From the UHGV virus genome UHGV-2031204: a stretch of DNA of 64,000 nucleotides, one strand, 5' to 3'. The translations under genes were made by a program, and so were the position numbers. This stretch comes from a virus. The notes beneath the pieces were generated by a model. The model was not told where the DNA came from. It did no database searches and worked only from the letters and a program-made list of their open reading frames with translations. Position 1 is the first letter of the stretch; the number at the start of each line of letters is the position of its first letter. Below, in pieces: positions 4,797 through 59,654 of this stretch.

Positions 4797-4825
4797 ACTC
4801 ACAAGTACGTTATAAGGTGGTTATT

Positions 4826-28773: not shown

Positions 28774-28813
28774 GGCCACTCTCCTTAATCCGAGACGTCC
28801 TTGTCTCGTGGCG

Positions 28814-33997: not shown

Positions 33998-34091
33998 CGT
34001 AAAGACTCCTACTTTTAAATAAAATGGATACCCCTCCCCATTACAGGGAGGGGTTACCTACGGACACACAACTGCCCGCAGGCAGCCTGTC

Positions 34092-37000
34092 CTAAGTACG
34101 ATCCCCTAACTGCTTCCCGTTAAGTTCTCGTTTCAGTACAGCCAAAATCCACTTCCACGCTTTACTCGTGATGTGGTACGGATTGCGTTTCTCCATTAAG
34201 AACTGACTTTCGCCGCTACGGAGTTCGAAGCTCTGCGCATTGAGTTGGTCTTGACGAACACCGTTCTCGTCAGTGACATCTAACGAACAGGTAAAGTTAA
34301 GCTCGTAGCCTTCAGGATTATTACCCGGTGGTTCTAAGACAATATAAATGTCCTGCCCTACACGTTGGTCCTTTGGCGTAAGGGTAACTGCTTTACCTGT
34401 GTCCGCGTTGGTCGAAAGCGCAAACGGTACGCTATCGATAGCTGATACATACGCGTCCTTCCCAGCATCACCGATAATCACCTTACCCGGCCAGTTACAC
34501 TTCACCGTTCCTGTCACTTTTGCAACACGGTACTGCTGTTTATCAGCACCTTGTGCAAAGCGTAAAATGAGTTTATGCCGATACCGGTTTGCGGCAACTT
34601 TGGATGTACTCCACTCATTGTTCCAGGAGGCATGAAGTTCACCTTTCTTGGCCATCAAAGCACCACGAGACAGCTTACGTGGGAAGAATTGTGCCGGAAG
34701 TTGCCCTTCGTGGGAAATCGCTACACTCCCTTGTCCGGTTGGAAGTGCTATTGTTTCCGTAGGGCAATAATTTAACTCGTACACGTGTGTTGTAGGATCG
34801 ATCAATTTCTGATAGTAATCACCGTCCTTACTGTCCGCTAACCAACCAACGGAAGAATCCGTATACGATTCAAACAGTGAACGTAAATAGTGATACTTAT
34901 CGATATCGATGTTGCCCGTTTTTGGATCGATCAGTGCATGGTTAATAGTGAGGAAACACTTCTCACTCAAACCATTAAACGCCAGCCCCACACCGTCACC
35001 GGTAAAATAGTCTACCAGGTCAAATGGAAGCGTCATTTCTATTTGTCGCAGGTTGATAGTCGTTGAACCAAACTGCGAAAAAGATAGCGCTAAACGAAGT
35101 ACACGAGTATTAACATTATAACGATAACGAATCATCCCACGCGGCGCATGGTTCGCGGAGATCTTATCACCGTTTGCACCCCACCCAATTAAATCGAGTA
35201 TTTCGGCGTTTGCTACTTCACCATTAAACAAAACGTCTTTAGTCGTGACTTCAACTGACGTTTCCCTTCCGGCATCCATCAACATCGAACCGTTATTCAA
35301 CTCGAAGCTCTTGTGCCAAACTTCAGAAGTCGAACCAGCACCTACACCCACCTTACAAGTTTTACTAGTAAGGTTAATACGCACATAACGGCGTCCCACT
35401 GTACCGCCCTGCGAGCTTGCACACAAAATAAGATCAGGTGCCGCAGACAGTGCCTTGGTCCCTCCAATGTCATCAACATCGAAAACGAATGAACCTTCGA
35501 ACGTTGGTGCGTTATTTTCCTTCGGGTTAAATGGCGTAAACCAACAATAAGGCGTCGCGCCCTCGGTTGAGAAAATCAACTCTAAGTCAGATTTAACATT
35601 TAATCCGTGGGAATAAGAAAAAAGACCGCGACTTAAGGTACAGAGCGTTCCACCGCTTCCGCTACCTAACGTTTTTCGATATATTAAAGCGCGGGGTTCT
35701 GGGATAGCACGGTTTAATAACGGCAACCGTGGGTTATCCGTTAACGCCCAGTCTACAGAACTGAGTCCGTGCGCTTTGCGTGTGTCAATATGTTCACTAA
35801 CCTCGGTACTTTTCCCGAAATCAAACGTGGTTTCAAAACTCACGGTTTTATTCGAGTAAGATTCACCGGCAACAATATCAACGTAGCCAATATATCCGCG
35901 CTCAGGGTCAACTGCAATACTCTGAATTGGCTCAGTACGCGAATACAGAGAGCCTGTGAGCATGTTAACGTACAGATAATGACGAATGCCTACGTGTGTT
36001 GTAACGAACTCTTGGAGAAGCTCTACGTGCGTTTCAGGACCACTGAAATAAACGGGGTAGTCACCGTCGTAAATTTCGAATTGCACCGCTGCGGATTTAG
36101 CCGTGTCGCTACACTCAGCTTTAACCGCTACGGTGTAGTTTTCAACGTCTGCTGATGTTTCATACACTGCAACAAGCGGAGACTGGCCTGTGGCTGCCTG
36201 GATACCGTTAATGTAAACTGTAACCGGGCCACCCCCTGCGGCATAAACCCAAAGCTTCGGCTGGCGTGCTCTTACCCGCGTTTTTGCCAACACAGTAACA
36301 ACTGACTGGTCACCCATCTGTGAGGCAGTTTTACCTACCGGAACAGATTGGAAACCCATTAGTGGTGGTTCTTCAATACCTGTCCAGCTAATGCCCTTAC
36401 CAGCACTCACTTTCCCCGTAGGCCAAGTCGTCTCAATTTGGTTGTTCGGTGAGAACCAGTTAAACATCGGTGTAGTTTGCAGGTCAATCGAACCTGTAAC
36501 GGCGCTATCAGCTTTCGCGCCGTTCAGCAAATAGAAATATTTCAAATCTTGAACGGAGATTGCCGTACCCTGGCTATTAAAGCGCCAGTCTGCGCCTTTT
36601 ACCGCAGCGAAATCCGTTACCGACCCTTCTTTCGCGTTTGCAATCGCCGCAGCAACCACATCTAAACGCGCCGAAAGTTCTTTTAAAATGTTCGGCACCA
36701 CTGCACGGTTTTCAACCAAACCGTTCTGGTTAGTTGCGTAACGACCGATACCGTAAACGGATTGCGAGGCTTTATAAATGCCTAGTTCCGACCAATCGTG
36801 GTGGTGGCCTGCATCCGCTAAGCCGCTAAGTGCCGCATTTAACTCGGTAGACAACGGCTTGTCAACGTCTGCGGTGTTATCCGCTTGCCCTAACCCCAGA
36901 TCAGCTTTCGTGATTGTCCTGGAGCCGTCGTTCATCGGCTTACCGTTAATCATGGTCGTTTTAGCCACATACCCCGATAGGTCGGTCGAGTATGGTGCTA

Positions 37001-38297
37001 ACGAAGCCGGAGTTGCAGCAACCCCAGTCGTTTCTGTACCTTTACCTGTTTTAAGTTTAGCGACGCCTTTTTCGGCGGTTGTCGCTTTTGTTGGGTCGAT
37101 AGTCCCCACGATAGGGTCGGCGCGAGAACCTTTACCGGTAAAGCTAATCCCATTACGGCCTTCAATGTACACCTTCGAGTCATCAGGGTCGCCACCGCCA
37201 CCAGAACCCGCATCTGGATCTTGTTGGTATTCCATCAATGTCGTGGTAGTCAGTAACGGGTTACCGTTCAGGGTGAGTTTGTTCATCCCTAAAGCATCGC
37301 CTGTTGACTCGATGCGTAATGTGTTTTTACCGGCACGCCAATTAATGTAACGTCCTGCACCTGTGCCTTCCAGATGTCCTACCGCTAATACCACAGAACC
37401 GTTGGATTTTAACGTAAAACCATCGTTGGCAAAAATGATTTCTGACTCACCGTTTTTCGAACGGAACTGTGCGCGGTTTCCTGACACCGTACAGTTAAAC
37501 ACGCCCCGTACTTCCGAAGAAATCCAGTGAGAGATATACGTGTCGATAACCGACTGCGGTAAACGAAACGCTTTCAGCTCATCCGTCAGTGCTTTCAACT
37601 TTAACCCGTACGCCATAAAGGTGTCGGGGGTTTTCAAGTTAACAGGATGCGCGTTAATCTGCGCGGATGTGGTTTCGTGCGGGTTCTTCGCTGCGATGTG
37701 TGCCGGGTAGTTAAATGCTTCGATTTCTTTACCCAACGCAGTCACTAACGCTTTAACTTCAGCTAATTTGTCTTTAATTAACTGGTTAGCGTCGTCGGTT
37801 TTCAATTCAATATCGTGAACTGCCGACGCTAAATATTTTTTGTTCAGCAAATCCGCCCAGGACGTTGCTGCTGGCGTCGCTGGATATAACGATGGTCTAC
37901 CGTCTAATAACAACCAGTCAGCACTGACTGGGTTATTCAAATATTTCACCAGTTCATCAAGAATATCAACGAACGGGTCGTAGAACGTACCACCGAGCAT
38001 TTGTCCTTCAAAGGTTACGATGCCTTTGATGGATGGGTTGATAAGGTGTACCCCACAATACACGTTGGCTGCTACCGAGTCATCCAGTTCCGTCAGCTGA
38101 TATTGCAGTTCGTAGTCCACCCCACGACTCAGTGGGGTGGTTGAACCTGGTTGTCTGACGACCAAATCTTCAAAGAACGGGCGGTGGTCTAAAATCACCA
38201 CCCGATCGTTGTTGTTCTCTGACCCGATGATACGCTCCTCTAAGAAGTGATTCTCGGCTTTCGTCCCCCGAGGATCGTAAGGATACGCTTTCATCAA
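34092..38297 (-). CDS. Giant fibre-like structural protein (1401 aa)
   Basis: N-terminal VVILDHRPFFEDLVVRQ…GVDYELQYQ anchor motif; hairpin at 34012-34040 between this gene and the next. Confidence 0.7.
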   Translation of the reverse strand: MMKAYPYDPRGTKAENHFLEERIIGSENNNDRVVILDHRPFFEDLVVRQPGSTTPLSRGVDYELQYQLTELDDSVAANVYCGVHLINPSIKGIVTFEGQMLGGTFYDPFVDILDELVKYLNNPVSADWLLLDGRPSLYPATPAATSWADLLNKKYLASAVHDIELKTDDANQLIKDKLAEVKALVTALGKEIEAFNYPAHIAAKNPHETTSAQINAHPVNLKTPDTFMAYGLKLKALTDELKAFRLPQSVIDTYISHWISSEVRGVFNCTVSGNRAQFRSKNGESEIIFANDGFTLKSNGSVVLAVGHLEGTGAGRYINWRAGKNTLRIESTGDALGMNKLTLNGNPLLTTTTLMEYQQDPDAGSGGGGDPDDSKVYIEGRNGISFTGKGSRADPIVGTIDPTKATTAEKGVAKLKTGKGTETTGVAATPASLAPYSTDLSGYVAKTTMINGKPMNDGSRTITKADLGLGQADNTADVDKPLSTELNAALSGLADAGHHHDWSELGIYKASQSVYGIGRYATNQNGLVENRAVVPNILKELSARLDVVAAAIANAKEGSVTDFAAVKGADWRFNSQGTAISVQDLKYFYLLNGAKADSAVTGSIDLQTTPMFNWFSPNNQIETTWPTGKVSAGKGISWTGIEEPPLMGFQSVPVGKTASQMGDQSVVTVLAKTRVRARQPKLWVYAAGGGPVTVYINGIQAATGQSPLVAVYETSADVENYTVAVKAECSDTAKSAAVQFEIYDGDYPVYFSGPETHVELLQEFVTTHVGIRHYLYVNMLTGSLYSRTEPIQSIAVDPERGYIGYVDIVAGESYSNKTVSFETTFDFGKSTEVSEHIDTRKAHGLSSVDWALTDNPRLPLLNRAIPEPRALIYRKTLGSGSGGTLCTLSRGLFSYSHGLNVKSDLELIFSTEGATPYCWFTPFNPKENNAPTFEGSFVFDVDDIGGTKALSAAPDLILCASSQGGTVGRRYVRINLTSKTCKVGVGAGSTSEVWHKSFELNNGSMLMDAGRETSVEVTTKDVLFNGEVANAEILDLIGWGANGDKISANHAPRGMIRYRYNVNTRVLRLALSFSQFGSTTINLRQIEMTLPFDLVDYFTGDGVGLAFNGLSEKCFLTINHALIDPKTGNIDIDKYHYLRSLFESYTDSSVGWLADSKDGDYYQKLIDPTTHVYELNYCPTETIALPTGQGSVAISHEGQLPAQFFPRKLSRGALMAKKGELHASWNNEWSTSKVAANRYRHKLILRFAQGADKQQYRVAKVTGTVKCNWPGKVIIGDAGKDAYVSAIDSVPFALSTNADTGKAVTLTPKDQRVGQDIYIVLEPPGNNPEGYELNFTCSLDVTDENGVRQDQLNAQSFELRSGESQFLMEKRNPYHITSKAWKWILAVLKRELNGKQLGDRT

Positions 38298-38307
38298 AAA
38301 AATCTCC

Positions 38308-41300
38308 TTAATCGCGAATGATTACCGCCTGCACTTTATTGTTGGTGTCGATAAACGACATTACGCGCTCCTTGTTAAGATAAGGAGGTATCGGTAACGC
38401 AGCGTAATCCGCCAGGTTGTTATTAAATTCAGTTGCCACTAACGCATTAAGCGTTTCGGGGTCTGAACTGACACCGGTCAAATCCATAACGCGCACACGA
38501 TTTAATGAGGAATAGTTGCTAATATAGTCTAACAACGTACCATAGACTTTATTCGCGGTTGCGCTATCTGCCGTAGAACGGATGTTGGCACGAACCTCAT
38601 CCTCATAAAGTCCCCCTAAACCGTAGTAAATAGGGGTATACGGATCGTTAACGATAGGTGCGATATTGAACCCTGTTAAACGGTCAGTTAGAGGGATTTT
38701 CTGCGTAGCTCCCCCTGCTGCCGTGCAGCTTACGTATTTATCTGTCGCAGATAAAAACACCACGATGGTATACGTAGTGCCCGCTAAGGTCAATGTTGCG
38801 TTAAACGTTATTGCGTTATTTGCAGCACGGGTGTGGGTAAACGTTACGTCAGGTTGTAACGTATTCCACGGCGCAGGCGTAACACGCTTCGTTGGTGTGA
38901 AACCTAACACTACCGATTTCCCGCTACCGAAGTTCAAACCGAACCCTGCGTAACAATATTCACCGTTGCTGTCAGTTAAACGATAACCACGAGTGATAAG
39001 TAACGACAACCGCATAAACTCGCCGTCGGTGTTTTTCCAACAACCTAAAACAGTTTCTAACACCGTGCCAGTTTTTGCGTTGCTTTCTGTTTCCCAACTT
39101 ACCCGCATTCCTGCGTTCTTAAAAGCTGGGAACGTGTTGTGGATAAACCCGTGTAGGTTATCGCTTACTCCTTTCGCGTCAAAAATCCACTTGGATGCAA
39201 GCTGGTCGTATTTCACCCCGTCTAAAGCTTTATACTGCCCCCCGGCAACATAACGCCAATCTGCTTCACCGCGTACTACTGCCTGGAGTCCAGAAGCCCA
39301 GCAAGGCGCGCCTACCGTTAAGTTAGCTAACCCAAGCGCTGCACGTGACGCGGTGCGTTGAATGTGTGCGTTGTCATCGGCCTTATGATCTTTCAGTTCA
39401 CGGAAATCACCCAACCGTGTGACATTACGCATCTCCGTAACGAACACCTCAGAAATGTCGTTAACACCAATCAACCCTACACGCGTCATGGTATCCGTTT
39501 CAGCCTGACTGTAGCTGTCGTGGACAATATACTTCGCTTTGTTGTCAACAATATCAACAAAAATCCCTGCGTAGATTTCTGTATTCAATTTCGGAAAACG
39601 TTCACTGACGTTAATCGTCATCAACGGAACGTCGTATGTTTCACCACCGATAAAATACGTTGAAGCTGGAAGCGTGACCAGAATTTTGTCTTTGACCGTA
39701 AGGTCTATTAAGTCGTTACCAGACTCACCAAAACGTATAATGTCAAGACGTGCCTCCGAGTCAACACCGCTGACAGCGCGCTCCAATTTTTCAATCTGAG
39801 AAGTCTGCGCCATTACCACACTCCCATCGAGTGCTAAAGTCGCATCATCCACATCCAGACCAAATTTAATCAGACCACGTTTCGCGGTGGTTGCGTTTCC
39901 AGTACCAAAAGCGGTAAACGGGTGTTGGTGAACTTTAGGCGAGTATTTATCTAACTCCGCACGTTGTGCTGTAGAAATCGGTAAATCGACATCGGGCGTA
40001 TTCGCAACATTACCTAAACCAAAGGTAATCTTATCGATAGTAACCGAGCTGGTAAGTTGCATGTCGTTAATGTACGATTTAACTGCAACTAACTTACCGG
40101 TGAACTCCGCATCGAGTTTTTCAATCAGTGCTGGCGTTGCTGCAAGGTTTTCAGCGGTACCGAACTCATCGGTCAACTGCCAAGCTGCCAGAGTTGTTGT
40201 ATCGGTCGCGGTAGGAAGAATAAAGGTCGCTACGAACGGCGAGGCTTTTATCCCGCTACCGGTGATCGTAACCGTTGTTGTCGAGTTTGCGTAGAATAAA
40301 CCTGTACCACCTGCGGTATTGCCTGGCAGATACGGGGCTACGGTGGTGGGGTCTAAGAGTTTTTTACCACGCCACAACAATCCTCGGTCATCGGGGTATA
40401 GCACAAGCTGGTTAGTACCTGCTTGGAACGTTACGGGGTTGTTACCCACGTTAACATCAGTTGAACCTTGGCCAATAAACTTAATGGATTTCGGATCAAC
40501 AACAAACTGAGCGCCTAAACGTGTCTCGTCAACAACATCCGGTGCTTTCTTAATGGTAACCGTGTTACCTTTGTTTTGCGAACTAATGGTAACGGCGTCG
40601 GCAACATTATTGATCAGCGATTTAAAGTGGTGCTGATTCTCTAATGCTTCTAACGCAGCGTCCATGTTATTGAAGTTGATCCGACCGCTATACGTTTTAC
40701 TGTTTACGGTAATAACGACGTCAAACACATTCCCTGTACGCTTCAGTTGAAAACGTAGCGTAAAATCCCCATCCGGTATTGCCGGGTTAGGAGCTTGTGA
40801 AATATACCGAACTGCCGGTACCGGACTACCGTAACCGTGCAACGCCAGTTCGATAGTAAGAGTACCGGACCAGACTTCACCGGTAATCTCTACGTACTTA
40901 CCGGAGTTACTACCAGGATTTTCGTAGAAACGTAAACCAACCCTACCGACCGCTTCATTACCAGACGCTGTTTTACGTCCAGTAACAATAAAGTCAATAT
41001 CTTGCAGGTTGGCAGGCACCGCATTAAAGTTAGCACTGAAACCGCTTTTCGCTCCTGTATAACGAAGCGCACCGTGATATCTGTGACCACTACTAACATA
41101 GCTTTCGCTAAAATAAGGACTCACGTATTTCGACATCGAGACCGGATCAACTTCCGTCGTGAACGAAGTAAAACCCGGAAGTGTGGTAATCGTGCCGTTA
41201 ACGTTCTTGCTCGCCGATTCACGAAGCAGTTTTTTCTGTGCGGTTAACGTTGCTTGTGTTGGGTACTTAGCATTAACGTAATCCGTTAACTGCTGTTTCG

Positions 41301-42630
41301 TTTTCCCGTAAGCTAACGCGGCATCCGACGCAATACCATTCAGCTCTAACGCACGGATCGGACCCCACGTATCGGTGTGCGGGTTGTCCTTACGTGTAAC
41401 GTGTTCGTGTGCAGGCGCGTTACGATACAGCTGCTCAACTAACTGATGGTATTTAACTATTAACTGGTAAACATCGTTATCGACGTCAGGTTCTGGTGCG
41501 CCGGGTAAAGAACGAATTTGAATATAATCATTTTCGGCCGCATACCAGTTTAGATTAATGTTCGTTTTAAACTTCAACCATTTAGCAACATCCGTTTTCG
41601 AATACCCTGCCGAGAACTCATCAGGCGGCGTATCGACGTTGAATGTGTAATCCATGGTCTGTTTATTTGTTTTTACTACGATGACGTAAACACCGTTTCC
41701 GGGTTGACGGGTTACACTAAAATCGATATCGTTTTTTAACTCATCGTCAGTTAAACCGTTGATTAACGTATAATCGTAGTTTGTTGAACCGCTACCAATA
41801 GCGACCGTTAAGACCAGTGAGATTTTGCGCTGTTTTAGCTGCAGCCGTAGAATACTTGCACCGCCGTTAGCATAACAGAGCATCCAATCGATCTGTTCGT
41901 TTGGATTCAATTTCGTCATGTCTGGCAGAATAGCAGGAATTCTGTGTTTCACTGACAGGACGTAGTCGTTAAAGGTTGCAGTTTTATAACTCAAGCTATA
42001 ACGATGACGGGTAGTGTTGTAGGTGAAGCCACCTTTATTGTCGTATACGGCATACTGCTCGGAAGTGATAACCTTGCTATTAGCACGGTATTCCAAATCC
42101 AGGGTATTGCGTGCGATGGGGTTAAGCCGACTCACGACTTCCCCTAACGAATCGCCTAATCCAGCAATAGCCTGCATTAATTCCAGTTCACCTTTCCAAT
42201 TCTCCCAATCGAACTGGATATCAACCGGCGGAAAGTAAACGTCCCCGATGACGGTGTCCCACTGACACGCAGACGGGTATTTATCTTTATTGAGTTCGCG
42301 TTCTGCGGTAATCTGTTGTTGGGTAGCCTGACCGCAACCAACGGCGTGGTAATCTACCGTAAAATTCGATTTGTATTTGTCATTAACAATCCAAATCATC
42401 CCGTGAATGAGATAGGCTGTGCGCAACATACCGGTCTCGTACGGGTGTGTAATAATGTAATCGTCGCCTAAGGTCAGTGTTTTGCCGCCGCTCTTGACCA
42501 CCAGGGATGTGGTGAAAAAAGGGGCGTGGGCAGGTACCAACATTCGGTATTTCGTACCAATGACGGCGACCGCTTCACCGGTTATTTTATTCCCCGGTTT
42601 TTTGAAGTGTGGGTCTAAGACGACAGCCAT
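38308..42630 (-). CDS. Giant fibre-like structural protein (1440 aa)
   Basis: N-terminal MLVPAHAPFFTTSLVVK…GDDYIITHPYE anchor motif; first gene of the minus-strand operon. Confidence 0.7.
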   Translation of the reverse strand: MAVVLDPHFKKPGNKITGEAVAVIGTKYRMLVPAHAPFFTTSLVVKSGGKTLTLGDDYIITHPYETGMLRTAYLIHGMIWIVNDKYKSNFTVDYHAVGCGQATQQQITAERELNKDKYPSACQWDTVIGDVYFPPVDIQFDWENWKGELELMQAIAGLGDSLGEVVSRLNPIARNTLDLEYRANSKVITSEQYAVYDNKGGFTYNTTRHRYSLSYKTATFNDYVLSVKHRIPAILPDMTKLNPNEQIDWMLCYANGGASILRLQLKQRKISLVLTVAIGSGSTNYDYTLINGLTDDELKNDIDFSVTRQPGNGVYVIVVKTNKQTMDYTFNVDTPPDEFSAGYSKTDVAKWLKFKTNINLNWYAAENDYIQIRSLPGAPEPDVDNDVYQLIVKYHQLVEQLYRNAPAHEHVTRKDNPHTDTWGPIRALELNGIASDAALAYGKTKQQLTDYVNAKYPTQATLTAQKKLLRESASKNVNGTITTLPGFTSFTTEVDPVSMSKYVSPYFSESYVSSGHRYHGALRYTGAKSGFSANFNAVPANLQDIDFIVTGRKTASGNEAVGRVGLRFYENPGSNSGKYVEITGEVWSGTLTIELALHGYGSPVPAVRYISQAPNPAIPDGDFTLRFQLKRTGNVFDVVITVNSKTYSGRINFNNMDAALEALENQHHFKSLINNVADAVTISSQNKGNTVTIKKAPDVVDETRLGAQFVVDPKSIKFIGQGSTDVNVGNNPVTFQAGTNQLVLYPDDRGLLWRGKKLLDPTTVAPYLPGNTAGGTGLFYANSTTTVTITGSGIKASPFVATFILPTATDTTTLAAWQLTDEFGTAENLAATPALIEKLDAEFTGKLVAVKSYINDMQLTSSVTIDKITFGLGNVANTPDVDLPISTAQRAELDKYSPKVHQHPFTAFGTGNATTAKRGLIKFGLDVDDATLALDGSVVMAQTSQIEKLERAVSGVDSEARLDIIRFGESGNDLIDLTVKDKILVTLPASTYFIGGETYDVPLMTINVSERFPKLNTEIYAGIFVDIVDNKAKYIVHDSYSQAETDTMTRVGLIGVNDISEVFVTEMRNVTRLGDFRELKDHKADDNAHIQRTASRAALGLANLTVGAPCWASGLQAVVRGEADWRYVAGGQYKALDGVKYDQLASKWIFDAKGVSDNLHGFIHNTFPAFKNAGMRVSWETESNAKTGTVLETVLGCWKNTDGEFMRLSLLITRGYRLTDSNGEYCYAGFGLNFGSGKSVVLGFTPTKRVTPAPWNTLQPDVTFTHTRAANNAITFNATLTLAGTTYTIVVFLSATDKYVSCTAAGGATQKIPLTDRLTGFNIAPIVNDPYTPIYYGLGGLYEDEVRANIRSTADSATANKVYGTLLDYISNYSSLNRVRVMDLTGVSSDPETLNALVATEFNNNLADYAALPIPPYLNKERVMSFIDTNNKVQAVIIRD

Positions 42631-53605: not shown

Positions 53606-53610
53606 CGTTT

Positions 53611-53653
53611 GGGAGAACCTTCGGGTTCTCCCTTTCTTTATTTTTTTCTTTTT
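53611..53653 (+). terminator. Rho-independent terminator
   Basis: GGGAGAACC-TTC-GGGTTCTCCC plus T-rich tract. Confidence 0.7.
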
Positions 53654-53683
53654 ACACCACACTCCGTCTTTATGGAGGTGGGT

Positions 53684-56188
53684 ATGCTAAAAGTTGAACG
53701 CATTATACTCAAAGGTTTTACGGGGATGGGATTACATGAAATTGAAACTTTCGATTTCACTATCCAGTCTCCAACAACAATTATCCTAGGTGGGAACGGT
53801 TGCGGGAAAACCAGTCTACTGTCTGTATTCTTACCCTTAGCACCGGCTAAAACTGAATTCAGAGACGGCGGTTCTTACACGAACTACTGTTTAGTTGGCG
53901 ATCAACGCTATCGTTTCAAAGTTGCCCGTAAAGGCAACTCTTTGGTTTGCGATATTGAGAACCTGACCACGGGGACAAAGATCGTCGAACAAGGCAATGC
54001 GAAAGTCTACAACTCCCGTGTTGAAGAAATCACGGGTATTACGAAAGAGATTAAAGAATTATTAAATGGTGAGGTGTTGTTAACTGATGCGGGAACCGAA
54101 CTACGTCGCAAGTGGTTTTACCGTTTAAGTACCTCTGACCTCACTTACGCGTTAGGGTTTTATCAACGTTTACGTAAAAACCTTACTGCCTTAAATGGGG
54201 GGATTGAAATCACCAGCCGTAAGATCGCCGAATTACGGACGCGTGTTATTGAGAACGAGGAAGAACGTCAGCAATTAGCGACGAGATTAAAAGGTTTGGA
54301 ATCGGATTTACGTGAACTGAACCGAGAAATCGAACAGTTGCCAGGATTAAATCGCGGCGTCACCATCGAAACAATCCAAGCGTCATTAAACAGCTTGGGT
54401 CCAACCATCGACGCAATATTACAACATCGTGGTGGTCTGCCTACTGATGAACAGATACAGGTCGCACGACAAAACGAGGCGACCGCCCGCGAAGCCGTCG
54501 TGTCTACTGAAACAGAGGTATCGATGTTGAATAAAGACTTGTCGCTATTGATGGATGAGTCGACACGACAAGACTACCTGATGCGGAATCACGAAGGTCT
54601 CAAGAATACACTGGCACGTTTACGTGAGTTACTTACCAAATGGGACACCGAGCATCTCTTTCCGGGTTTATTTAACGACAACGTCAATTTAGACCAACTT
54701 CGTGCGGCTACCGATGCGCGTGTCTGGGGGCAACGGTTAGGAACAACACTGGACGCAATTCATTCAACCGAAAAACTCAATGTTTTGGAAGAACGGCTTC
54801 TGGTGATGGATCAAAAAACCGCAGGGTTGCGGGATAGACTCCAGCGAGTGGAGAACGTTTTACAGAATTTAAATCACGAACGTAATCACTACTTAGAAAC
54901 AGCGGAAGTGGATTGCCCGCAGTGTCGGTTTAAGTTCCGTCCTGGTGTTACGCGTTCTTTACCTGAACTTGAGTCTTCGATTCGCGGACAACAACAGCAG
55001 CGCACGGAACTGCAAACGCAGTTAGAGACCTTATTACGCGATCGTGTTGAATTAGAATCTGATGTAACTTATATGCGGCAGGTTCGTGAGATTGTACTGA
55101 CGTATTCAAAGGACCCGGTATTGAGCATGTTCTTTAAGCGTTTGCAAGAACGTAACGTTTTCACAGAATCACGCGAGCAGTTCGGGAGTCTATGCGCAGC
55201 GTTTGACAGCGAGTTGTACTCTGCTATTGAGTACCATGAAACCCGTCAACGGTTAGTGAAGGCGGAAAAAGAATGGCAGGATGCCGTGGCGGCCGTTGGT
55301 AACGTCGATGGTGCTTTACAACAAAAAATCGCTTTCCAACAGTCACGATTAGGTAAAGCCACAGAGATGCTCTCAATGCGTCGTAGAGAGCACGAACTGG
55401 CTAACACGACACTTACCTATCTGGTGAATGTTAAACGTGCTGTAGATGATTTCAGTGCGTTATTCGAACGGTTAGAGAGTGATGTTAAGGTTACGTTGAC
55501 AAATACAGTCGTCGAGGAACTCTTACGTACACGAGAAGGGAAGCTGGATGCTTTTACAACCGCACGCGAACGTTATCGTCAAATGGAAAATGAATTGAAC
55601 CAGCTCAACAGTTTGGAACGCGAACTTGCTGACTTACAAGCCCAGCAGTTCAATAACAAACTGATGATTCAAGCCTTCTCGCCAGAAAAGGGTGTACTTA
55701 GAAAGTATTTTTACAACGCTATCGTTAGAATCACAGAGTTAATGACGCGTTATATCGAACAGGTCTGGACGTACCCCATGCGTGTTATGCCTTGTGATCT
55801 CACTGACGGCGATTTGGATTATACTTTTCCTGTCCAGCTAAAAACGCATCCTGAGCCTGTTCCTGACGTGCGTAAAGGGTCAAAGGCGCAGCGTGCGATA
55901 TTTAATCTGATGTTCAGACTGACTGCGTACAAAGCGCTGAAGTTGCATCAGTTTCCGTTGCTTTTGGACGAGCCTTCGGAGGGTATGGATGAGGAGCACC
56001 GTAACAACCTGGTCGGCTTTATTAAAACGTTAGCAAACTCAGGAGATTTTTCACAACTGTTGGTAGTCTCCCACGAAGCTGAGGTTCATTCTAAACTTAA
56101 TGAAGCATCGTACTGTGTCATCGAACCGGAAGGGGTGACATTACCTGCGGTGTATAACGAAGGAGTAAAAATTGTTTATGCAAACTGA
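53684..56188 (+). CDS. SbcC/Rad50-like SMC-family ATPase with coiled coil and CxxC zinc hook
   Basis: Walker A GGNGCGKTS; central CPQC; C-terminal LLLDEPSEGMD and VVSHE; ATG 53684 after RBS GGAGGTG (track start 53609 lies in the terminator). Confidence 0.75.
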   Translation: MLKVERIILKGFTGMGLHEIETFDFTIQSPTTIILGGNGCGKTSLLSVFLPLAPAKTEFRDGGSYTNYCLVGDQRYRFKVARKGNSLVCDIENLTTGTKIVEQGNAKVYNSRVEEITGITKEIKELLNGEVLLTDAGTELRRKWFYRLSTSDLTYALGFYQRLRKNLTALNGGIEITSRKIAELRTRVIENEEERQQLATRLKGLESDLRELNREIEQLPGLNRGVTIETIQASLNSLGPTIDAILQHRGGLPTDEQIQVARQNEATAREAVVSTETEVSMLNKDLSLLMDESTRQDYLMRNHEGLKNTLARLRELLTKWDTEHLFPGLFNDNVNLDQLRAATDARVWGQRLGTTLDAIHSTEKLNVLEERLLVMDQKTAGLRDRLQRVENVLQNLNHERNHYLETAEVDCPQCRFKFRPGVTRSLPELESSIRGQQQQRTELQTQLETLLRDRVELESDVTYMRQVREIVLTYSKDPVLSMFFKRLQERNVFTESREQFGSLCAAFDSELYSAIEYHETRQRLVKAEKEWQDAVAAVGNVDGALQQKIAFQQSRLGKATEMLSMRRREHELANTTLTYLVNVKRAVDDFSALFERLESDVKVTLTNTVVEELLRTREGKLDAFTTARERYRQMENELNQLNSLERELADLQAQQFNNKLMIQAFSPEKGVLRKYFYNAIVRITELMTRYIEQVWTYPMRVMPCDLTDGDLDYTFPVQLKTHPEPVPDVRKGSKAQRAIFNLMFRLTAYKALKLHQFPLLLDEPSEGMDEEHRNNLVGFIKTLANSGDFSQLLVVSHEAEVHSKLNEASYCVIEPEGVTLPAVYNEGVKIVYAN

Positions 56189-56357
56189 TTGGTTCCGTCG
56201 TTTTATGGACGCGGCGGGGTTTGGTTTCATGTCCATTCTAGCGGTTCTTTATGTCATGTTTTGCGTGGTGATGATTTTATGGGTAGTTTCATCTTATCTG
56301 ATTAAACTATCGTGGGGTTCAATTTGGCGTCAACGCGAATGCGAATGGCGGAATTAG
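56172..56357 (+). CDS. Small membrane protein (61 aa)
   Basis: Hydrophobic core FGFMSILAVLYVMFCVVMILWVVSSYLI; overlaps SbcC-like stop. Confidence 0.45.
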   Translation: MFMQTDWFRRFMDAAGFGFMSILAVLYVMFCVVMILWVVSSYLIKLSWGSIWRQRECEWRN

Positions 56358-56367
56358 GAGAGGGAAT

Positions 56368-56466
56368 ATGGTTGTAGGGGTTCTGTTAACACTTGGCTCG
56401 TTGTGGTTAATTGGTAAAGGTTTAAACTGGCTGATTAAACGTCACCGTTGGGCATTCGAAGATTAA
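56368..56466 (+). CDS. Tiny single-TM protein (32 aa)
   Basis: Strong RBS AGGAGAGGG; MVVGVLLTLGSLWLIGKGLNWLIKRHRWAFED; not in track. Confidence 0.4.
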   Translation: MVVGVLLTLGSLWLIGKGLNWLIKRHRWAFED

Positions 56467-56523
56467 CCACCCAAATAATCCAGAAGATACCCTCCGGTGT
56501 GAGGGTATTGATAGGAGCAGAAA

Positions 56524-56652
56524 ATGACCACGATAAACGCTACGAATGTAGCGATATCCGCACTATACGACGCGGAACTTTCATGGGGTGGGTTAATAAT
56601 CACCACAGCCATATTAGCCGCTGCGGCTTTCGTCATCGCGCGTTGGTTTTAA
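56524..56652 (+). CDS. Tiny single-TM protein (42 aa)
   Basis: RBS AGGAGCAG; …GGLIITTAILAAAAFVIARWF; not in track. Confidence 0.4.
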   Translation: MTTINATNVAISALYDAELSWGGLIITTAILAAAAFVIARWF

Positions 56653-56683
56653 TTTTACTTTTTTGCGTCTCTAAGGTTTGCAA

Positions 56684-57127
56684 ATGGAAATTTATTTGTT
56701 GAACGCATCTTCTAAAGTCGGCGAACGACAAGCTGCCGATTTACTCAAACTGCACTACCGTTACTTAGACCACCAGGCCACGTTACTGAAAATCAAAATG
56801 TCGGTGCCGAAGTTAAATGCGCGACAGCTGATCGAAGGTAACTGCATAGTTCTGGTGTATCAGGATGATGTCGCGGTAGGATACTGTAGTTATCGGAATC
56901 GTAACGGTTCACTTAAGATACGTTCGGTATACGTGCTCCCAGACTATCGTCAACGGGGTGTAATGAAAGAGATTTTCAAAGCAATTGCAGCTGATGAGGT
57001 TTTCGGCGAGATTGTTACTGGCATGTATGCGAAATGTAAAGAAGCAAAAGAGTATTTCATCCGACGCGGCTATCAAGCGGTTTACTCACGCGATCGTGAG
57101 TGGGTCGATTTTAGCAAAACATTCTAA
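56684..57127 (+). CDS. GNAT-family N-acetyltransferase-like protein
   Basis: VYVLPDYRQRGVMKEIF resembles the GNAT acetyl-CoA-binding motif. Confidence 0.55.
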   Translation: MEIYLLNASSKVGERQAADLLKLHYRYLDHQATLLKIKMSVPKLNARQLIEGNCIVLVYQDDVAVGYCSYRNRNGSLKIRSVYVLPDYRQRGVMKEIFKAIAADEVFGEIVTGMYAKCKEAKEYFIRRGYQAVYSRDREWVDFSKTF

Positions 57128-57193
57128 AAACAATAAAGCTCTCTTGGCGTACCTCACTATGAGTGTGAGAAATTTACGTCAGGAGAGCTAATT

Positions 57194-57439
57194 ATGTTAA
57201 AATCGTACGGAGTGGGTGGTTTGGATACGAGTATTTGTTGGAAGGAATACGAACGTGCGAAAGCGTTCTTACAGCATCCCAATGTAGGGACAATAGGTAA
57301 GGTCTGTTTCGGCAAACCTTCACTGACGGCTTGTATCCAAGGGGCTTTAGGGACGTTGCCACCCGAATCACATTTCGAGCCTGAGGAGAATATGAATGTT
57401 CACAGAGAACCCATCAATTTACGGTATACCGTTGAATGA
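57194..57439 (+). CDS. Hypothetical protein
   Basis: 81-aa ORF; RBS AGGAGAG. Confidence 0.45.
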   Translation: MLKSYGVGGLDTSICWKEYERAKAFLQHPNVGTIGKVCFGKPSLTACIQGALGTLPPESHFEPEENMNVHREPINLRYTVE

Positions 57440-57764
57440 AATTGATATTCTACAAATTTGTTATCAGTGTGGTGACTTCGGTAAGACGCAGGTAACGCCG
57501 TTAGTTAAGCTTTTAGGTTACTTGCCTGAAATCGAGTTGCCTTTTGTTAAACCTAGCTTAGTTCGTCGTGCATCGTGTCGTGAAGCTTATTTGCTCTGGA
57601 AACACAATATTGCGGTAGAGAAGGTCTGGGATCGTATGAACGATCATCAGTTCCGTGAGCAGGTCGTACATACGCTTAACTTGGCACTGACTATGCAGCG
57701 CCTGGGCTTACAACACGAAGGTTTAGAAGCGGCGGTCAAGCAATGGATTACGAAAAATCGATAA
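57396..57764 (+). CDS. Hypothetical protein
   Basis: 122-aa ORF; RBS GAGGAGAA; overlaps previous ORF. Confidence 0.45.
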   Translation: MFTENPSIYGIPLNEIDILQICYQCGDFGKTQVTPLVKLLGYLPEIELPFVKPSLVRRASCREAYLLWKHNIAVEKVWDRMNDHQFREQVVHTLNLALTMQRLGLQHEGLEAAVKQWITKNR

Positions 57765-57788
57765 TGGGTAAAACATATATCGCTATAC

Positions 57789-58349
57789 TTGTCGAGCTAT
57801 CAATCGGCGGTACACGTTTTAATGCTACACATCAGCTCCGGGCGTTTCGTTATGTTAACGGTACGTAAAGAATCTGAAATTGGTAACGATCTTTTTAATG
57901 CACCCGAAGACTATAAAGTCGTTACCATTAACTGCGTAGGAGCGATGGGTCGCGGTATTGCACTCGCGTGTCGTGAACGCTACCCCAACCTTTACCAGGA
58001 TTATCGTAAGCGGTGTCGTGAAGACGAAATTAAGATTGGTAGCGTTTACGTTTACTCTGACGAAAAGTGTATCTTGCTCCCCACGAAAACCCATTGGCGC
58101 TTAAAGTCCCAGGTTTCTTATGTTACTGCGGGCATTACCGCACTAGCAGACTGTGCTGAGGATCTAGATACCAGCGTTGCTATCCCTCCACTGGGAATGG
58201 CAAATGGGTGGTTAGATTCCTGGGAAAGACAAGAAATCTTTTTGTGGCTTTACAAAAAACTTGAACCGAGGAGACAACACTACACGTTATACTTACCCGA
58301 TAGTTTGTACCGAGAAGCAGAGTCATTAATTCCAAACTCTTTTAAATAG
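57789..58349 (+). CDS. Macro-domain protein (TARG1/O-acyl-ADP-ribose deacylase-like)
   Basis: DLFNAPEDYKVVTINCVGAMGRGIALACRERYP…LLPTKTHWRLKS…IPPLGMANG; start uncertain (TTG 57789, ATG 57822 or 57852). Confidence 0.65.
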   Translation: MSSYQSAVHVLMLHISSGRFVMLTVRKESEIGNDLFNAPEDYKVVTINCVGAMGRGIALACRERYPNLYQDYRKRCREDEIKIGSVYVYSDEKCILLPTKTHWRLKSQVSYVTAGITALADCAEDLDTSVAIPPLGMANGWLDSWERQEIFLWLYKKLEPRRQHYTLYLPDSLYREAESLIPNSFK

Positions 58350-58449
58350 ATATTATCATTAGGGCACACAACAAAGGAGTATTAGCTGTCCGCGCCGTCA
58401 TTTCGTCTTACGGAATACGGAAATGTATAAATCCAACTGGAGAAACAAA

Positions 58450-59148
58450 ATGTTTCGTATCTTCTTTCTTTTACTGGTAACACTTTTCGCGTTTAACGCA
58501 CAGGCGTCAACGTCAACGCCACATTCTAAACATCAGCGTGAGTTTACACAAATCCAACATCGGTTCGAAAAAGTCAGTCCGTTAATTGTGGAAATCTCAC
58601 GAAAGCAAGGCGTTGATCCTAAGCTGATGATTACGCTGATTTATCGTGAATCGCGTTTTGATCCCAAGGCTTACAACAAAAGCTCACGAGCACACAGCCT
58701 GGTACAGATGCTTCCAAGTACCAAGCGTAATCTGCTAAGGCTTTATGGAAAAGAATTAGGTCTTAGTCAGAACGCCGATTTGTATAATCCGCGTAATGCT
58801 GTTTTGCTGGCTGCCGCGTATGTTAAACATCTTGAAAAGGGGTTAACCAAACGACTCAAACGCAAGCCCACCATGGCTGAAGTTGCGTTAGCTTACCACT
58901 GGGGTGAAAGTGGCGCTCACACGCGAATCAAAAGCAAATCTCGAGCAGCACAACGAGAAATGGCAGGCTTTATGAAAGACGCCTCGTTCTATAGCGCGAA
59001 AATCGATGTGCCTGTTGTTGTGGGCTCGGCCCCACGTCAGCTTGCGTTTGCGAAGAAAACACCACGTCAGATTCAATTGGCGGAAGTTAGTAAAATTTGG
59101 GATACGATAAACACGAGTTTTCCAATCAATAGAGGAGTTACCCTTTGA
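58450..59148 (+). CDS. Secreted lytic transglycosylase (SLT domain)
   Basis: Signal peptide MFRIFFLLLVTLFAFNAQA; YRESRFDPKAYNKSSRAHSLVQMLPST matches the SLT motif; RBS GGAGAAAC before ATG 58450. Confidence 0.7.
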   Translation: MFRIFFLLLVTLFAFNAQASTSTPHSKHQREFTQIQHRFEKVSPLIVEISRKQGVDPKLMITLIYRESRFDPKAYNKSSRAHSLVQMLPSTKRNLLRLYGKELGLSQNADLYNPRNAVLLAAAYVKHLEKGLTKRLKRKPTMAEVALAYHWGESGAHTRIKSKSRAAQREMAGFMKDASFYSAKIDVPVVVGSAPRQLAFAKKTPRQIQLAEVSKIWDTINTSFPINRGVTL

Positions 59149-59654
59149 GCATCGTAGTAACCGATTGGTATAAAGGCATTACAAAAGCCGCACAATTGAC
59201 CGCGAAAGACGTTTACAGTATCGTCCGAAGCAGCATCGAAGACGAGATTAAGTCGGATGAAGAATTCGCAGAGAAACACGAATTTTACGATGCTTTACCC
59301 ACAGCATTCGGTGATGACGAAGAAGAAGGTTTAGAGTTTGACTGGAACGTCAACCTTGCCTTGTTGTGGATTTGTGGTTTACGACCAACGGTAAAAGAAA
59401 CCGAAGAAGGGAAAGTCTTGCTTTGGAATTTTACCGGACAGTATAATCGTAGTTTAGTCTTTAAACAGGCGTATATGGACGCTACTGTAGAACTTCAAAA
59501 TCTACTGCTTGGTGAAAACACATACTGCCAGCGTAGTTTTTTAACGATTCTGGAAAAACTTGTGACGACGCACAAAGTCTGGCGTAAAGAAGACGCCCCA
59601 GAACACATGTTCATTTTAGAGTACGCTGTCATTCCAAATCAGCCGTTCTTCTAA
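59145..59654 (+). CDS. Hypothetical acidic protein
   Basis: TTG start after RBS AGAGGAG. Confidence 0.45.
   Translation: MSIVVTDWYKGITKAAQLTAKDVYSIVRSSIEDEIKSDEEFAEKHEFYDALPTAFGDDEEEGLEFDWNVNLALLWICGLRPTVKETEEGKVLLWNFTGQYNRSLVFKQAYMDATVELQNLLLGENTYCQRSFLTILEKLVTTHKVWRKEDAPEHMFILEYAVIPNQPFF

What the first reader, a model, noticed from the sequence alone, without database searches (positions are those of the whole stretch)
56684..58349. Macro-domain protein near a GNAT acetyltransferase: candidate ADP-ribose-processing counter-defence
The macro-domain ORF resembles TARG1-type ADP-ribose hydrolases and sits two genes after a GNAT-like acetyltransferase. Macro domains reverse ADP-ribosylation, which some bacterial defence toxins (DarT-type) use, so this may be an anti-defence pair. 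The functional link is speculative.
Basis: partly seen in the sequence, partly recalled or inferred. Interest (0 to 1): 0.6.

Follow-up and report, generated by a model that had tools for sequence, protein, structure and literature searches.

The report
Jumbo-phage AdfM anti-DarT macrodomain gene
The macro-domain gene is real and is an ortholog of AdfM, a jumbo-phage enzyme published in 2026 that strips toxin-added ADP-ribose off phage DNA. The nearby acetyltransferase is not its partner; it is paired with a small protein that copies the start of host elongation factor EF-Tu.

Summary
The window is from an SPN3US-like nucleus-forming jumbo phage. It encodes a GNAT acetyltransferase (56684-57127) and, two genes downstream, a 165-aa stand-alone macrodomain (57852-58349).

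**Macrodomain.** Its closest relatives are DarG antitoxin macrodomains:
- PDB hits 5m3i/5m31 at E 1e-25 and 1e-20.
- PADLOC DarG at E 2e-36.
- Foldseek top hits 5m3e/5m3i, with TARG1 next.

It is 60% identical over its full length to Erwinia phage Asesino gp217 and 40% identical to PhiKZ gp104. Both are named AdfM ("anti-DarT factor macro", Cell Rep 2026). Both active-site residues (N27, K79) are conserved. It has no DarT-binding domain, and no DarT gene lies anywhere in the window. It is therefore an orphan DarG2-like antitoxin.

**GNAT link.** The proposed GNAT-macro pair is not supported. AdfM-like macros occur in about 288 phage records. This GNAT occurs in 50, all but one weak hit in the same clade. 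Sister lineages keep the SMC...macro...SLT block without it.

**Less expected.** The GNAT is always followed by an 81-aa protein (57194-57439) homologous to the first ~37 residues of EF-Tu. This two-gene module is uncharacterised.

The parts
57852..58349 (+). AdfM ortholog: a stand-alone DarG2-like macrodomain of 165 aa. Predicted active-site residues are N27 and K79. The longer open frame from TTG 57789 is probably not translated.
   Evidence: Family and model hits:
- Pfam Macro above cut-off.
- PDB DarG macrodomains 5m3i E 3e-25 and 5m31 E 4e-20.
- PADLOC DarG E 1.9e-36.
- NCBIfam antitoxin_DarG matches model positions 7-155 of 338 only.

Identity to named AdfM proteins: 60% over the full length to Asesino gp217 and 40% to PhiKZ gp104.

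Conservation: T78, K79, G30, G33 and G35 invariant; N27 at least 90% conserved.

Structure: AF2 model pLDDT 93.6. Foldseek top hits are 5m3e/5m3i/5m31 at E ~1e-13.
56684..57127 (+). GNAT-fold N-acetyltransferase, 147 aa, substrate unknown. Not a specific partner of the macro gene.
   Evidence: Pfam Acetyltransf_1/_7/_10 above cut-offs; phrog_3810 E 1e-25. NCBIfam gives only weak hits: ArsN2 E 6e-7 and rimI E 4e-3, both far below their cut-offs. A family profile against PDB returns generic GNATs, including several N-alpha-acetyltransferases and RimI at E ~1e-4. tblastn finds it in 50 phage records, 49 of them in one clade.
57194..57439 (+). 81-aa protein homologous to the N-terminal ~37 residues of EF-Tu (strand beta-1, a degenerate P-loop, start of helix A). 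It is the invariant downstream neighbour of the GNAT.
   Evidence: NCBIfam EF-Tu models E 3e-4 to 1.5e-3, model positions 4-38. A family profile against PDB hits only EF-Tu chains, E 3e-8 to 8e-6. Against 5.8 billion proteins it finds about 26 jumbo-phage clusters, then EF-Tu fragments. N30, V31, G32, I34 and G35 are invariant; the P-loop GK[ST] is not conserved. It lies directly downstream of the GNAT in the loci that carry the GNAT family (L020 retains only an N-terminal match; frame split in L021-L023). All 48 phage records with it also have the GNAT.
57396..57764 (+). 122-aa protein of unknown function (phrog_11720), homolog of SPN3US gp072. A GAGGAG ribosome-binding site lies 7 nt upstream of its ATG.
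   Evidence: phrog_11720 E 1e-30. tblastn to SPN3US 173975-174253 gives 42% identity. No Pfam, NCBIfam or PADLOC hit. Sequence read.
57764..57868 (+). Possible 34-aa upstream ORF. Its start overlaps the stop of the preceding gene (TAATG) and its end overlaps the macro ATG. It may couple translation to the macro gene, which has a weak ribosome-binding site.
   Evidence: Sequence read. An equivalent 35-aa gene is called on contig L010. No similarity to SPN3US gp071, which occupies the same position. Weak evidence only.
53609..56188 (+). SMC/SbcC-like ATPase (start codon uncertain). It is the conserved upstream anchor of the syntenic block.
   Evidence: phrog_77 E 3e-92; Pfam SMC_N E 2e-8, below its cut-off. 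57% identical to SPN3US gp080. SMC...macro...SLT order is seen in five macro lineages.
58423..59148 (+). SLT-domain lytic transglycosylase. It is the conserved downstream anchor of the syntenic block.
   Evidence: Pfam SLT E 1e-14; phrog_4067 E 1e-47. Same position in SPN3US, Asesino and pVa-21.

Best explanation
The gene at 57852-58349 encodes an ortholog of AdfM (anti-DarT factor macro). This is an orphan, DarG2-like macrodomain carried by nucleus-forming jumbo phages (chimalliviruses).

Proposed mechanism:
1. Host DarT2 toxins ADP-ribosylate thymidines in single-stranded phage DNA at TNTC motifs, which reduces phage DNA replication and blocks genome packaging into virions.
2. The phage macrodomain binds the ADP-ribose and hydrolyses the thymidine-ADP-ribose bond, using the conserved Asn27/Lys79 site. 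This restores the DNA.
3. By analogy with its Asesino ortholog, it is probably imported into the phage nucleus, where the DNA is.

Shown here: the sequence, the fold, the active-site residues, orthology to AdfM, and the orphan status (no DarT, no DarT-binding domain).

Inferred from the published work on PhiKZ, PhiPA3 and Asesino AdfM: enzymatic activity, target and nuclear localisation.

The upstream GNAT is a separate module. It is coupled to an EF-Tu N-terminal mimic, and the function of that module is unknown.
For: 1. The window is collinear with Salmonella phage SPN3US 135-180 kb: 36 of 68 ORFs match, mean 56% aa identity. SPN3US and Asesino are experimentally nucleus-forming (PMC13282480).
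2. Full-length identity is 60% to Asesino gp217 and 40% to PhiKZ gp104. Both are listed as AdfM in PMC13309987 Fig. 1.
3. That paper shows four things: PhiKZ AdfM removes DarT2-made ADP-ribose from an oligonucleotide; the N23A mutant is impaired; it rescues DarT2 toxicity; and AdfM deletions make PhiKZ and PhiPA3 sensitive to DarTG2. Asesino AdfM-GFP localises to the phage nucleus.
4. N27 and K79 align with PhiKZ N23/K78 and Thermus aquaticus DarG N22/K80. T78-K79 and the GxxGxG loop are invariant in 33 homologs.
5. The best sequence matches in PDB, PADLOC and NCBIfam are all DarG. The AF2 model (pLDDT 93.6) superposes best on DarG macrodomains (TM 0.84, rmsd 2.1 A), then TARG1.
6. Orphan status: it is 165 aa and covers only the macro half of the DarG models. 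There is no DarT homolog in six-frame translation of the whole window. By contrast, every long DarG-like protein (323-386 aa) recovered in the same search has an upstream DarT.
Against: - No experiment exists on this protein or on any SPN3US-clade ortholog's enzymatic activity. For Asesino only localisation was shown.
- The clade has an altered second glycine-rich loop: PPLGMANGW, versus PPLGCANGG in PhiKZ and PPLGAGNGG in T. aquaticus DarG. The effect of this change is untested.
- Macrodomains are catalytically promiscuous. Elsewhere, related orphan phage macros sit beside NAD-salvage or RNA-repair genes (NAPRTase, SIR2, NADAR, RNA ligase, cREC), so other substrates are possible.
- The host of this phage, and whether it carries DarTG2, are not known from the window.
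Confidence: 0.82

Rival explanations
1. One reading: the GNAT and the macrodomain are a functional anti-defence pair. For example, acetyl- and ADP-ribose chemistry might be combined, as in O-acetyl-ADP-ribose metabolism, or the two might act on one target.
For: Both genes lie on the same strand 725 nt apart, and no terminator-like site lies on that strand between them. The order GNAT...macro is kept throughout the SPN3US/Erwinia clade. In Serratia phage Moabite an unrelated GNAT directly abuts and overlaps the macro gene, in a different genomic context. This second, independent adjacency is a weak hint.
Against: - AdfM-like macros are in ~288 phage records, this GNAT in 50.
- PhiKZ, PhiPA3 and RAY AdfM loci have no GNAT.
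- Lineages that share SMC...macro...SLT synteny (Derbicus-like L025-27, pVa-21 L008, L032) lack it.
- Only 3 of 26 dereplicated orphan-macro lineages have any GNAT within 3 kb.
- The intervening genes vary: 2 in the window, 4 in SPN3US and Asesino.
- PhiKZ AdfM works alone in vitro and in E. coli.
- The GNAT's strictly conserved neighbour is the EF-Tu-like gene.
Confidence: 0.05
2. The macrodomain has a different or broader substrate. Candidates are free ADP-ribose derivatives (ADP-ribose-1''-phosphate, O-acetyl-ADP-ribose), ADP-ribosylated protein or RNA, or immune-signalling ADP-ribose derivatives. On this reading it serves NAD/RNA-repair metabolism or counters another ADP-ribosylating defence, rather than DarT2.
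For: Database annotations of homologs read 'Appr-1-p processing', 'phosphatase' or 'O-acetyl-ADP-ribose deacetylase'. Other orphan phage macros recovered in the same search neighbour NAPRTase, SIR2, NADAR, RNA ligase, cREC_REC and PolyA_pol genes. TARG1, the next-closest fold, acts on protein-linked ADP-ribose.
Against: - Those annotations are generic name transfers.
- The closest sequence and structure matches are specifically DarG, an equivalog-level model.
- The experimentally tested family members act on DarT2-modified DNA and are needed only on DarTG2 hosts.
- The window contains no NAD-salvage, RNA-ligase, ART or NADAR genes.
Confidence: 0.1
3. Explanation for the GNAT only: the GNAT and the EF-Tu N-terminal-like mini-protein form a separate two-gene module aimed at the host translation factor EF-Tu or at something that recognises it. 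The mini-protein could be a pseudo-substrate or regulator of the acetyltransferase. Alternatively it could be a decoy for a host factor that binds or modifies the EF-Tu N-terminus.
For: - Strict co-occurrence and adjacency: all 48 phage records with the mini-gene have the GNAT, and it lies 60-160 nt downstream of the GNAT in the loci examined.
- The EF-Tu homology is statistically solid and specific.
- The mini-protein has no confident fold of its own, pLDDT 51. This fits a partner-dependent peptide.
- The GNAT's better solved relatives include N-alpha-acetyltransferases and RimI. RimI is the enzyme that acetylates the EF-Tu N-terminus in E. coli (PMC9079301).
Against: - Co-occurrence is confined to one clade, so shared ancestry alone could explain it.
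- The GNAT's similarity to RimI is weak: 17 bits against a cut-off of 86.
- The EF-Tu-like segment is internal, preceded by ~16 residues, so it is not a mimic of a free N-terminus.
- There is no functional data at all.
Confidence: 0.35

Closest known systems
AdfM (anti-DarT factor macro): PhiKZ gp104, PhiPA3 gp108, Goslar gp83, Asesino gp217 (Morgan et al., Cell Rep 2026, PMC13309987)
   Same: A stand-alone ~160-aa DarG2-like macrodomain in a chimallivirus. It is 60% identical to Asesino gp217 and 40% to PhiKZ gp104. The active-site Asn and Lys are the same. In Asesino it occupies the same syntenic slot (SMC...acetyltransferase...macro-SLT).
   Different: It comes from a phage not present in the GenBank phage set (no megablast hit). 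The SPN3US-clade variant of the second Gly-rich loop (GMANGW) has not been tested biochemically.
DarG2, the antitoxin of the DarTG2 toxin-antitoxin system (T. aquaticus 5M31/5M3E, M. tuberculosis 5M3I)
   Same: It gives the best sequence and fold match. The catalytic K80 and N22 equivalents are present. The expected chemistry is the same: removal of ADP-ribose from thymidine in ssDNA.
   Different: It lacks the C-terminal DarT-binding domain, has no adjacent DarT, and scores below the NCBIfam equivalog cut-off (123.6 vs 250 bits). It is phage-borne and works against the system rather than as part of it.
Human TARG1 (C6orf130; 4J5Q/4J5S)
   Same: Same macrodomain subclass (TM 0.80-0.84, rmsd ~2.2 A) with a catalytic lysine in the equivalent strand.
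   Different: Only ~19% identity. TARG1 removes ADP-ribose from protein glutamate/aspartate. DarG macrodomains are clearly closer.
AdfN (orphan DarG1-like NADAR of T-even phages, PMC11825919); AdfA and ICP1 AdfB (PMC11481870)
   Same: Same strategy: the phage carries an orphan antitoxin-like factor against DarT.
   Different: Unrelated folds. AdfN is a NADAR and acts against DarT1 (guanine ADP-ribosylation). AdfA and AdfB are non-enzymatic DarT inhibitors.
EF-Tu (for the 81-aa neighbour gene)
   Same: Residues ~17-52 align with EF-Tu residues ~2-37. HxNVGTIGxV is invariant.
   Different: It is only a fragment. The P-loop GK[ST] is lost and there is no G-domain, so it cannot be a GTPase. Some Erwinia phage records label it 'putative elongation factor Tu', but no function is known.

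Membership tests
AdfM (phage anti-DarT factor macro) | Stand-alone macrodomain protein (~150-170 aa) encoded by a chimallivirus-type jumbo phage | tested here: met
   165 aa. The window is collinear with SPN3US. SPN3US and Asesino are nucleus-forming. Chimallin itself is not in the 64-kb window, so phage family membership rests on synteny.
AdfM (phage anti-DarT factor macro) | Sequence orthology to the named members | tested here: met
   60% identity over 164 aa to Asesino gp217, E 2e-73. 40% identity to PhiKZ gp104, E 4e-30. Same syntenic position as in Asesino.
AdfM (phage anti-DarT factor macro) | Conserved active-site Asn and Lys (PhiKZ N23/K78; T. aquaticus DarG N22/K80) | tested here: met
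   N27 and K79 align with them. K79 is invariant and N27 at least 90% conserved in 33 homologs.
AdfM (phage anti-DarT factor macro) | Hydrolyses DarT2-made thymidine-ADP-ribose on ssDNA and protects the phage from DarTG2 | not testable with these tools
   Shown only for PhiKZ and PhiPA3 AdfM in PMC13309987.
AdfM (phage anti-DarT factor macro) | Imported into the phage nucleus | not testable with these tools
   Shown for Asesino, PhiKZ and PhiPA3 GFP fusions. No sequence signal is known that could be scanned.
DarG antitoxin (DarTG2 toxin-antitoxin system) | N-terminal DarG-type macrodomain | tested here: met
   PADLOC DarG E 1.9e-36. PDB 5m3i E 3e-25. Foldseek 5m3e E 2.5e-13, TM 0.84.
DarG antitoxin (DarTG2 toxin-antitoxin system) | C-terminal DarT-binding domain (full length ~330-390 aa) | tested here: not met
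   The protein ends at 165 aa. It matches only positions 7-155 of 338 in NF048014 and scores 123.6 bits against a cut-off of 250.
DarG antitoxin (DarTG2 toxin-antitoxin system) | Adjacent DarT toxin gene | tested here: not met
   A DarT HMM built from 7 verified DarT sequences finds nothing in six-frame translation of the window at E<=1. It finds DarT upstream of every long DarG-like gene in the control loci.
TARG1-type macrodomain | Macro fold of the TARG1/DarG subclass with a catalytic lysine | tested here: met
   Foldseek 4j5q/4j5s/4j5r E ~2e-7, TM 0.80-0.84. Lys79 is present. The TARG1 Asp125 equivalent was not examined.
GNAT acetyltransferase superfamily (ORF 56684-57127) | GNAT domain with an acetyl-CoA-binding motif A (R/Q-x-x-G-x-G/A) | tested here: inconclusive
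   Domain membership is met: three Pfam GNAT models score above their cut-offs. Motif A reads R-Q-R-G-V-M, so its last position is not G/A.
RimI (ribosomal protein S18 / EF-Tu N-alpha-acetyltransferase) | Score above the TIGR01575 equivalog cut-off | tested here: not met
   17.3 bits against a cut-off of 86.4. A family profile hits RimI structure 9mto only at E 1.3e-4, among many other GNATs.
EF-Tu / translational GTPase (ORF 57194-57439) | Intact P-loop GxxxxGK[ST] and a complete G domain | tested here: not met
   Only EF-Tu residues ~2-37 are represented. The P-loop reads GKVCFGKP here and SRS, DDT, GRS or AQS in homologs. The protein is 81 aa.

The most novel reading that the evidence does not exclude
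The unexplored element is the GNAT plus the EF-Tu N-terminal-fragment protein (56684-57439), not the macrodomain. The two genes are strictly co-inherited in SPN3US/Erwinia-type nucleus-forming jumbo phages. They could be a new host-takeover or anti-defence device that acts on, or impersonates, the N-terminus of EF-Tu. Possible forms are a pseudo-substrate-regulated acetyltransferase of the translation machinery, or a decoy for a host factor that recognises EF-Tu.
Probability: 0.15. Interest if true: 0.65.

Novelty: new member of a known kind. Interest (0 to 1): 0.25.

Why it matters
For the macrodomain the value is confirmatory. It extends the recently described AdfM family to another, uncultured SPN3US-like phage, probably of Salmonella or related enterics. 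It shows that the SPN3US/Erwinia clade carries a distinct loop variant that has not been tested biochemically. For phage-therapy host-range prediction, AdfM marks likely resistance to DarTG2.

The analysis also removes a false lead, the GNAT-macro 'pair'. It replaces it with a sharper question: why do about 50 jumbo phages keep an acetyltransferase glued to a fragment copy of EF-Tu's N-terminus?

Tried and rejected
- Megablast of 56000-59500 against GenBank phages found no match.
- The AF2 model of the EF-Tu-like mini-protein was low confidence (pLDDT 50.7), so no fold search was attempted.
- The sigma-70 promoter and terminator scan of 56000-59400 gave nothing above shuffled controls. This is uninformative for a phage that uses its own RNA polymerases.
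- PADLOC and NCBIfam gave nothing for the other neighbour genes.
- The Foldseek search against viral models added only generic phage macro proteins.
- The 34-aa upstream ORF has no similarity to SPN3US gp071.
- I tested whether Moabite's macro-adjacent GNAT is the same family as the window's. It is not: there is no significant pairwise similarity and it falls in a different PHROG.
- A full DarTG system and a macro-associated ART, NADAR or NAD-salvage module in the window were both considered and rejected.
Full report
**What is there.** The region 53.6-59.2 kb of the window is a single-strand gene array:
- an SMC/SbcC-like ATPase (53609-56188);
- a GNAT acetyltransferase (56684-57127);
- an 81-aa ORF (57194-57439);
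- a 122-aa ORF (57396-57764);
- a macro-domain ORF (open frame from 57789, most likely start ATG 57852, stop 58349);
- an SLT lytic transglycosylase (58423-59148).

Pfam places the GNAT and the macro ORFs in their families above the curated cut-offs. PHROGs recognises every gene in the array as a phage family.

**Which phage.** Megablast against GenBank phages finds nothing. At protein level the window is collinear with Salmonella phage SPN3US from 135 to 180 kb: 36 of 68 ORFs match at a mean 56% identity. This includes the same SMC - acetyltransferase - small ORFs - macro - transglycosylase order that is annotated in SPN3US, Proteus phage 7 and Erwinia phage Asesino. Proteins 89-97% identical to the macro occur on 220-226-kb contigs from metagenomes and from Salmonella enterica assemblies. 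SPN3US and Asesino are experimentally nucleus-forming chimalliviruses (PMC13282480).

**What the macro protein is.** The homologs are 150-174 aa, and gene callers on near-identical contigs give 165 aa. I therefore take ATG 57852 as the start.

Sequence and model evidence:
- Its best matches among solved structures are the macrodomains of the DarG antitoxins of M. tuberculosis (5m3i, E 3e-25) and T. aquaticus (5m31, E 4e-20), followed by the Thermosipho DarTG fusion 7omu.
- PADLOC's DarG model matches at E 1.9e-36.
- NCBIfam's equivalog 'antitoxin DNA ADP-ribosyl glycohydrolase DarG' matches at E 1e-35, but only over model positions 7-155 of 338 and below the full-length cut-off.
- An AlphaFold2 model built on 28 homologs is confident (pLDDT 93.6).
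- Foldseek ranks the three DarG macrodomain entries first (E ~1e-13, TM 0.84, rmsd 2.1 A). Next come the DarTG fusion 7omu, TTHA0132 (2dx6), TARG1 (TM 0.80-0.84) and Streptomyces SCO6735.

**It is already named.** A full-text search returned Morgan et al., Cell Rep 2026 (PMC13309987). That paper reports the following:
- About half of chimalliviruses encode a DarG2-like macrodomain, which the authors call AdfM.
- PhiKZ AdfM (gp104) removes DarT2-made ADP-ribose from a TNTC oligonucleotide.
- The N23A mutant is impaired.
- AdfM rescues DarT2 toxicity in E. coli.
- AdfM deletions make PhiKZ and PhiPA3 sensitive to DarTG2 by 3-6 logs.
- AdfM of PhiKZ, PhiPA3 and Asesino localises to the phage nucleus.

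Their alignment lists Asesino gp217 as an AdfM. The window protein is 60% identical to gp217 over its whole length (E 2e-73) and 40% identical to PhiKZ gp104, and it sits in the same syntenic slot as gp217. Its N27 and K79 align with PhiKZ N23/K78 and T. aquaticus DarG N22/K80. T78, K79 and the GxxGxG loop are invariant across 33 homologs.

**Orphan status.** From 80 IMG/VR loci and 10 others I obtained 37 macro lineages at 60% identity. Of these, 26 are short (143-203 aa) and 11 are long (231-459 aa). In the DarG-length lineages (323-386 aa), the upstream ORF carried Pfam DarT in 8 of 9 representatives tested. A DarT HMM built from these finds DarT upstream of the macro gene in all the long-type loci and nothing at all in six-frame translation of the window. 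The window protein is therefore a DarG2-type antitoxin domain without toxin and without the toxin-binding domain, which is the definition of AdfM. The window also has no second macro, ART or NADAR gene.

**The GNAT link.**
- tblastn finds AdfM-like macros in 287-288 phage records. These include PhiKZ-like, phiEco32-like, Thermus, Streptomyces and Rhodococcus phages.
- The window's GNAT is found in only 50 records. Of these, 49 are in the SPN3US/Erwinia clade and one is a weak hit.
- PhiKZ, PhiPA3 and RAY AdfM neighbours are not GNATs.
- Scanning all ORFs of at least 90 aa within 3 kb of the macro in the 26 short-macro lineages against Pfam found GNAT domains in only three. Two are the window-type cluster and its Erwinia sister cluster, which carry the same GNAT family in the same block. 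The third is Serratia phage Moabite, whose GNAT is unrelated although it overlaps the macro gene.
- Three lineages that keep SMC...macro...SLT (Derbicus-like, pVa-21, L032) have no GNAT.
- The spacing (662-1987 nt) and the number of intervening genes vary.

The co-location therefore reflects clade synteny, not a conserved functional pair. The single independent Moabite adjacency is noted but is too little to build on.

**What the GNAT is really tied to.** The 81-aa ORF directly after the GNAT gave an unexpected NCBIfam hit to the first 38 positions of EF-Tu.

Evidence that the homology is real and the pairing is strict:
- A 10-sequence family profile searched against PDB hits essentially only EF-Tu chains at E 3e-8 to 8e-6. 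The next family, eIF2-gamma, is at 2e-3.
- Against 5.8 billion proteins it finds about 26 jumbo-phage clusters and then EF-Tu fragments.
- HxNVGTIGxV is invariant, whereas the P-loop Lys/Thr is not. It cannot be a GTPase.
- It lies immediately downstream of the GNAT in the loci that carry the GNAT family.
- All 48 phage records with it also have the GNAT.
- Some Erwinia-phage records already label it 'putative elongation factor Tu', but I found no study of it.
- AF2 gives no confident fold (pLDDT 51), as expected for a fragment that needs a partner.
- The GNAT family profile hits generic GNATs, among them several N-alpha-acetyltransferases and RimI (E ~1e-4). RimI is the enzyme that acetylates the EF-Tu N-terminus (PMC9079301).

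This is suggestive only. RimI membership fails its cut-off.

**Verdict.** The finding is real and the anti-DarT reading is correct. It is, however, a new member of a family published in 2026 (AdfM), so novelty and interest are low. The proposed GNAT-macro pairing is not supported. The piece of this locus that remains unexplained is the GNAT plus EF-Tu-fragment module, and it is the part worth an experiment.

Noticed in passing
window 57194-57439 (+), with the GNAT at 56684-57127: An 81-aa protein homologous to EF-Tu residues ~2-37 (HxNVGTIGxV invariant, P-loop degenerate). It always lies directly downstream of the GNAT in ~48 SPN3US/Erwinia-type jumbo phages. Its function is unknown and it is occasionally annotated 'putative elongation factor Tu'.
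   Followed up: yes
L021:1594-3013, L022 and L023:1080-2490 (IMG/VR Erwinia-phage-like contigs): In this sister lineage the GNAT is tandemly duplicated. The EF-Tu-like reading frame is split over two frames, with the N-terminal motif in one and [10 protein letters not shown] in another. Possible causes are a frameshift, a pseudogene or recoding.
   Followed up: no
L004:3532-4441 (Serratia phage Moabite): An unrelated GNAT (different PHROG, no pairwise similarity) overlaps the start of the Moabite AdfM-like macro gene, in a different genomic context (RNAP beta, helicase). This is a second, independent GNAT-macro adjacency.
   Followed up: partly
window 148-4770 and 4817-5608 (+): A 1540-aa long-tail-fibre protein is followed by a T-even-type Gp38 adhesin (Pfam GP38, E 6e-69). 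The compared SPN3US region has no counterpart. This looks like a T4-like receptor-binding module in an SPN3US-like jumbo phage.
   Followed up: no
window 23205-24527 and 24511-25434 (-): Two adjacent radical-SAM proteins, 82% and 69% identical to SPN3US gp103 and gp102. Their function in these phages is unknown.
   Followed up: no
window 27574-42630 (-): Four consecutive paralogous virion proteins of 401, 1727, 1401 and 1440 aa. They cross-hit phrog_2163, 7449, 8078 and 7557 and are syntenic with SPN3US gp099-gp096.
   Followed up: no
L043:4705-5739, L045:4852-5886, L049:812-1837: One cluster of short orphan macros in viral contigs has a weak DarT-like ORF (E ~1e-7 to a local DarT HMM) a few hundred bases downstream of the macro. 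This could be an inverted or divergent DarT-macro arrangement.
   Followed up: no
neighbour ORFs of short-macro loci L023-L082 (alignments A3, A4): Orphan DarG-like macros in other viral lineages sit next to NAD-salvage or RNA-repair genes: NAPRTase, SIR2, NADAR, phosphoribosyltransferase, RNA ligase, cREC_REC and a PolyA_pol-type nucleotidyltransferase. Not all AdfM-like macros need have the same role.
   Followed up: no
window 57764-57868 (+): A 34-aa ORF starts at the TAATG stop/start overlap with the preceding gene and ends 14 nt after the macro ATG, which has a weak Shine-Dalgarno sequence. An equivalent gene is called on contig L010. This may be translational coupling.
   Followed up: partly
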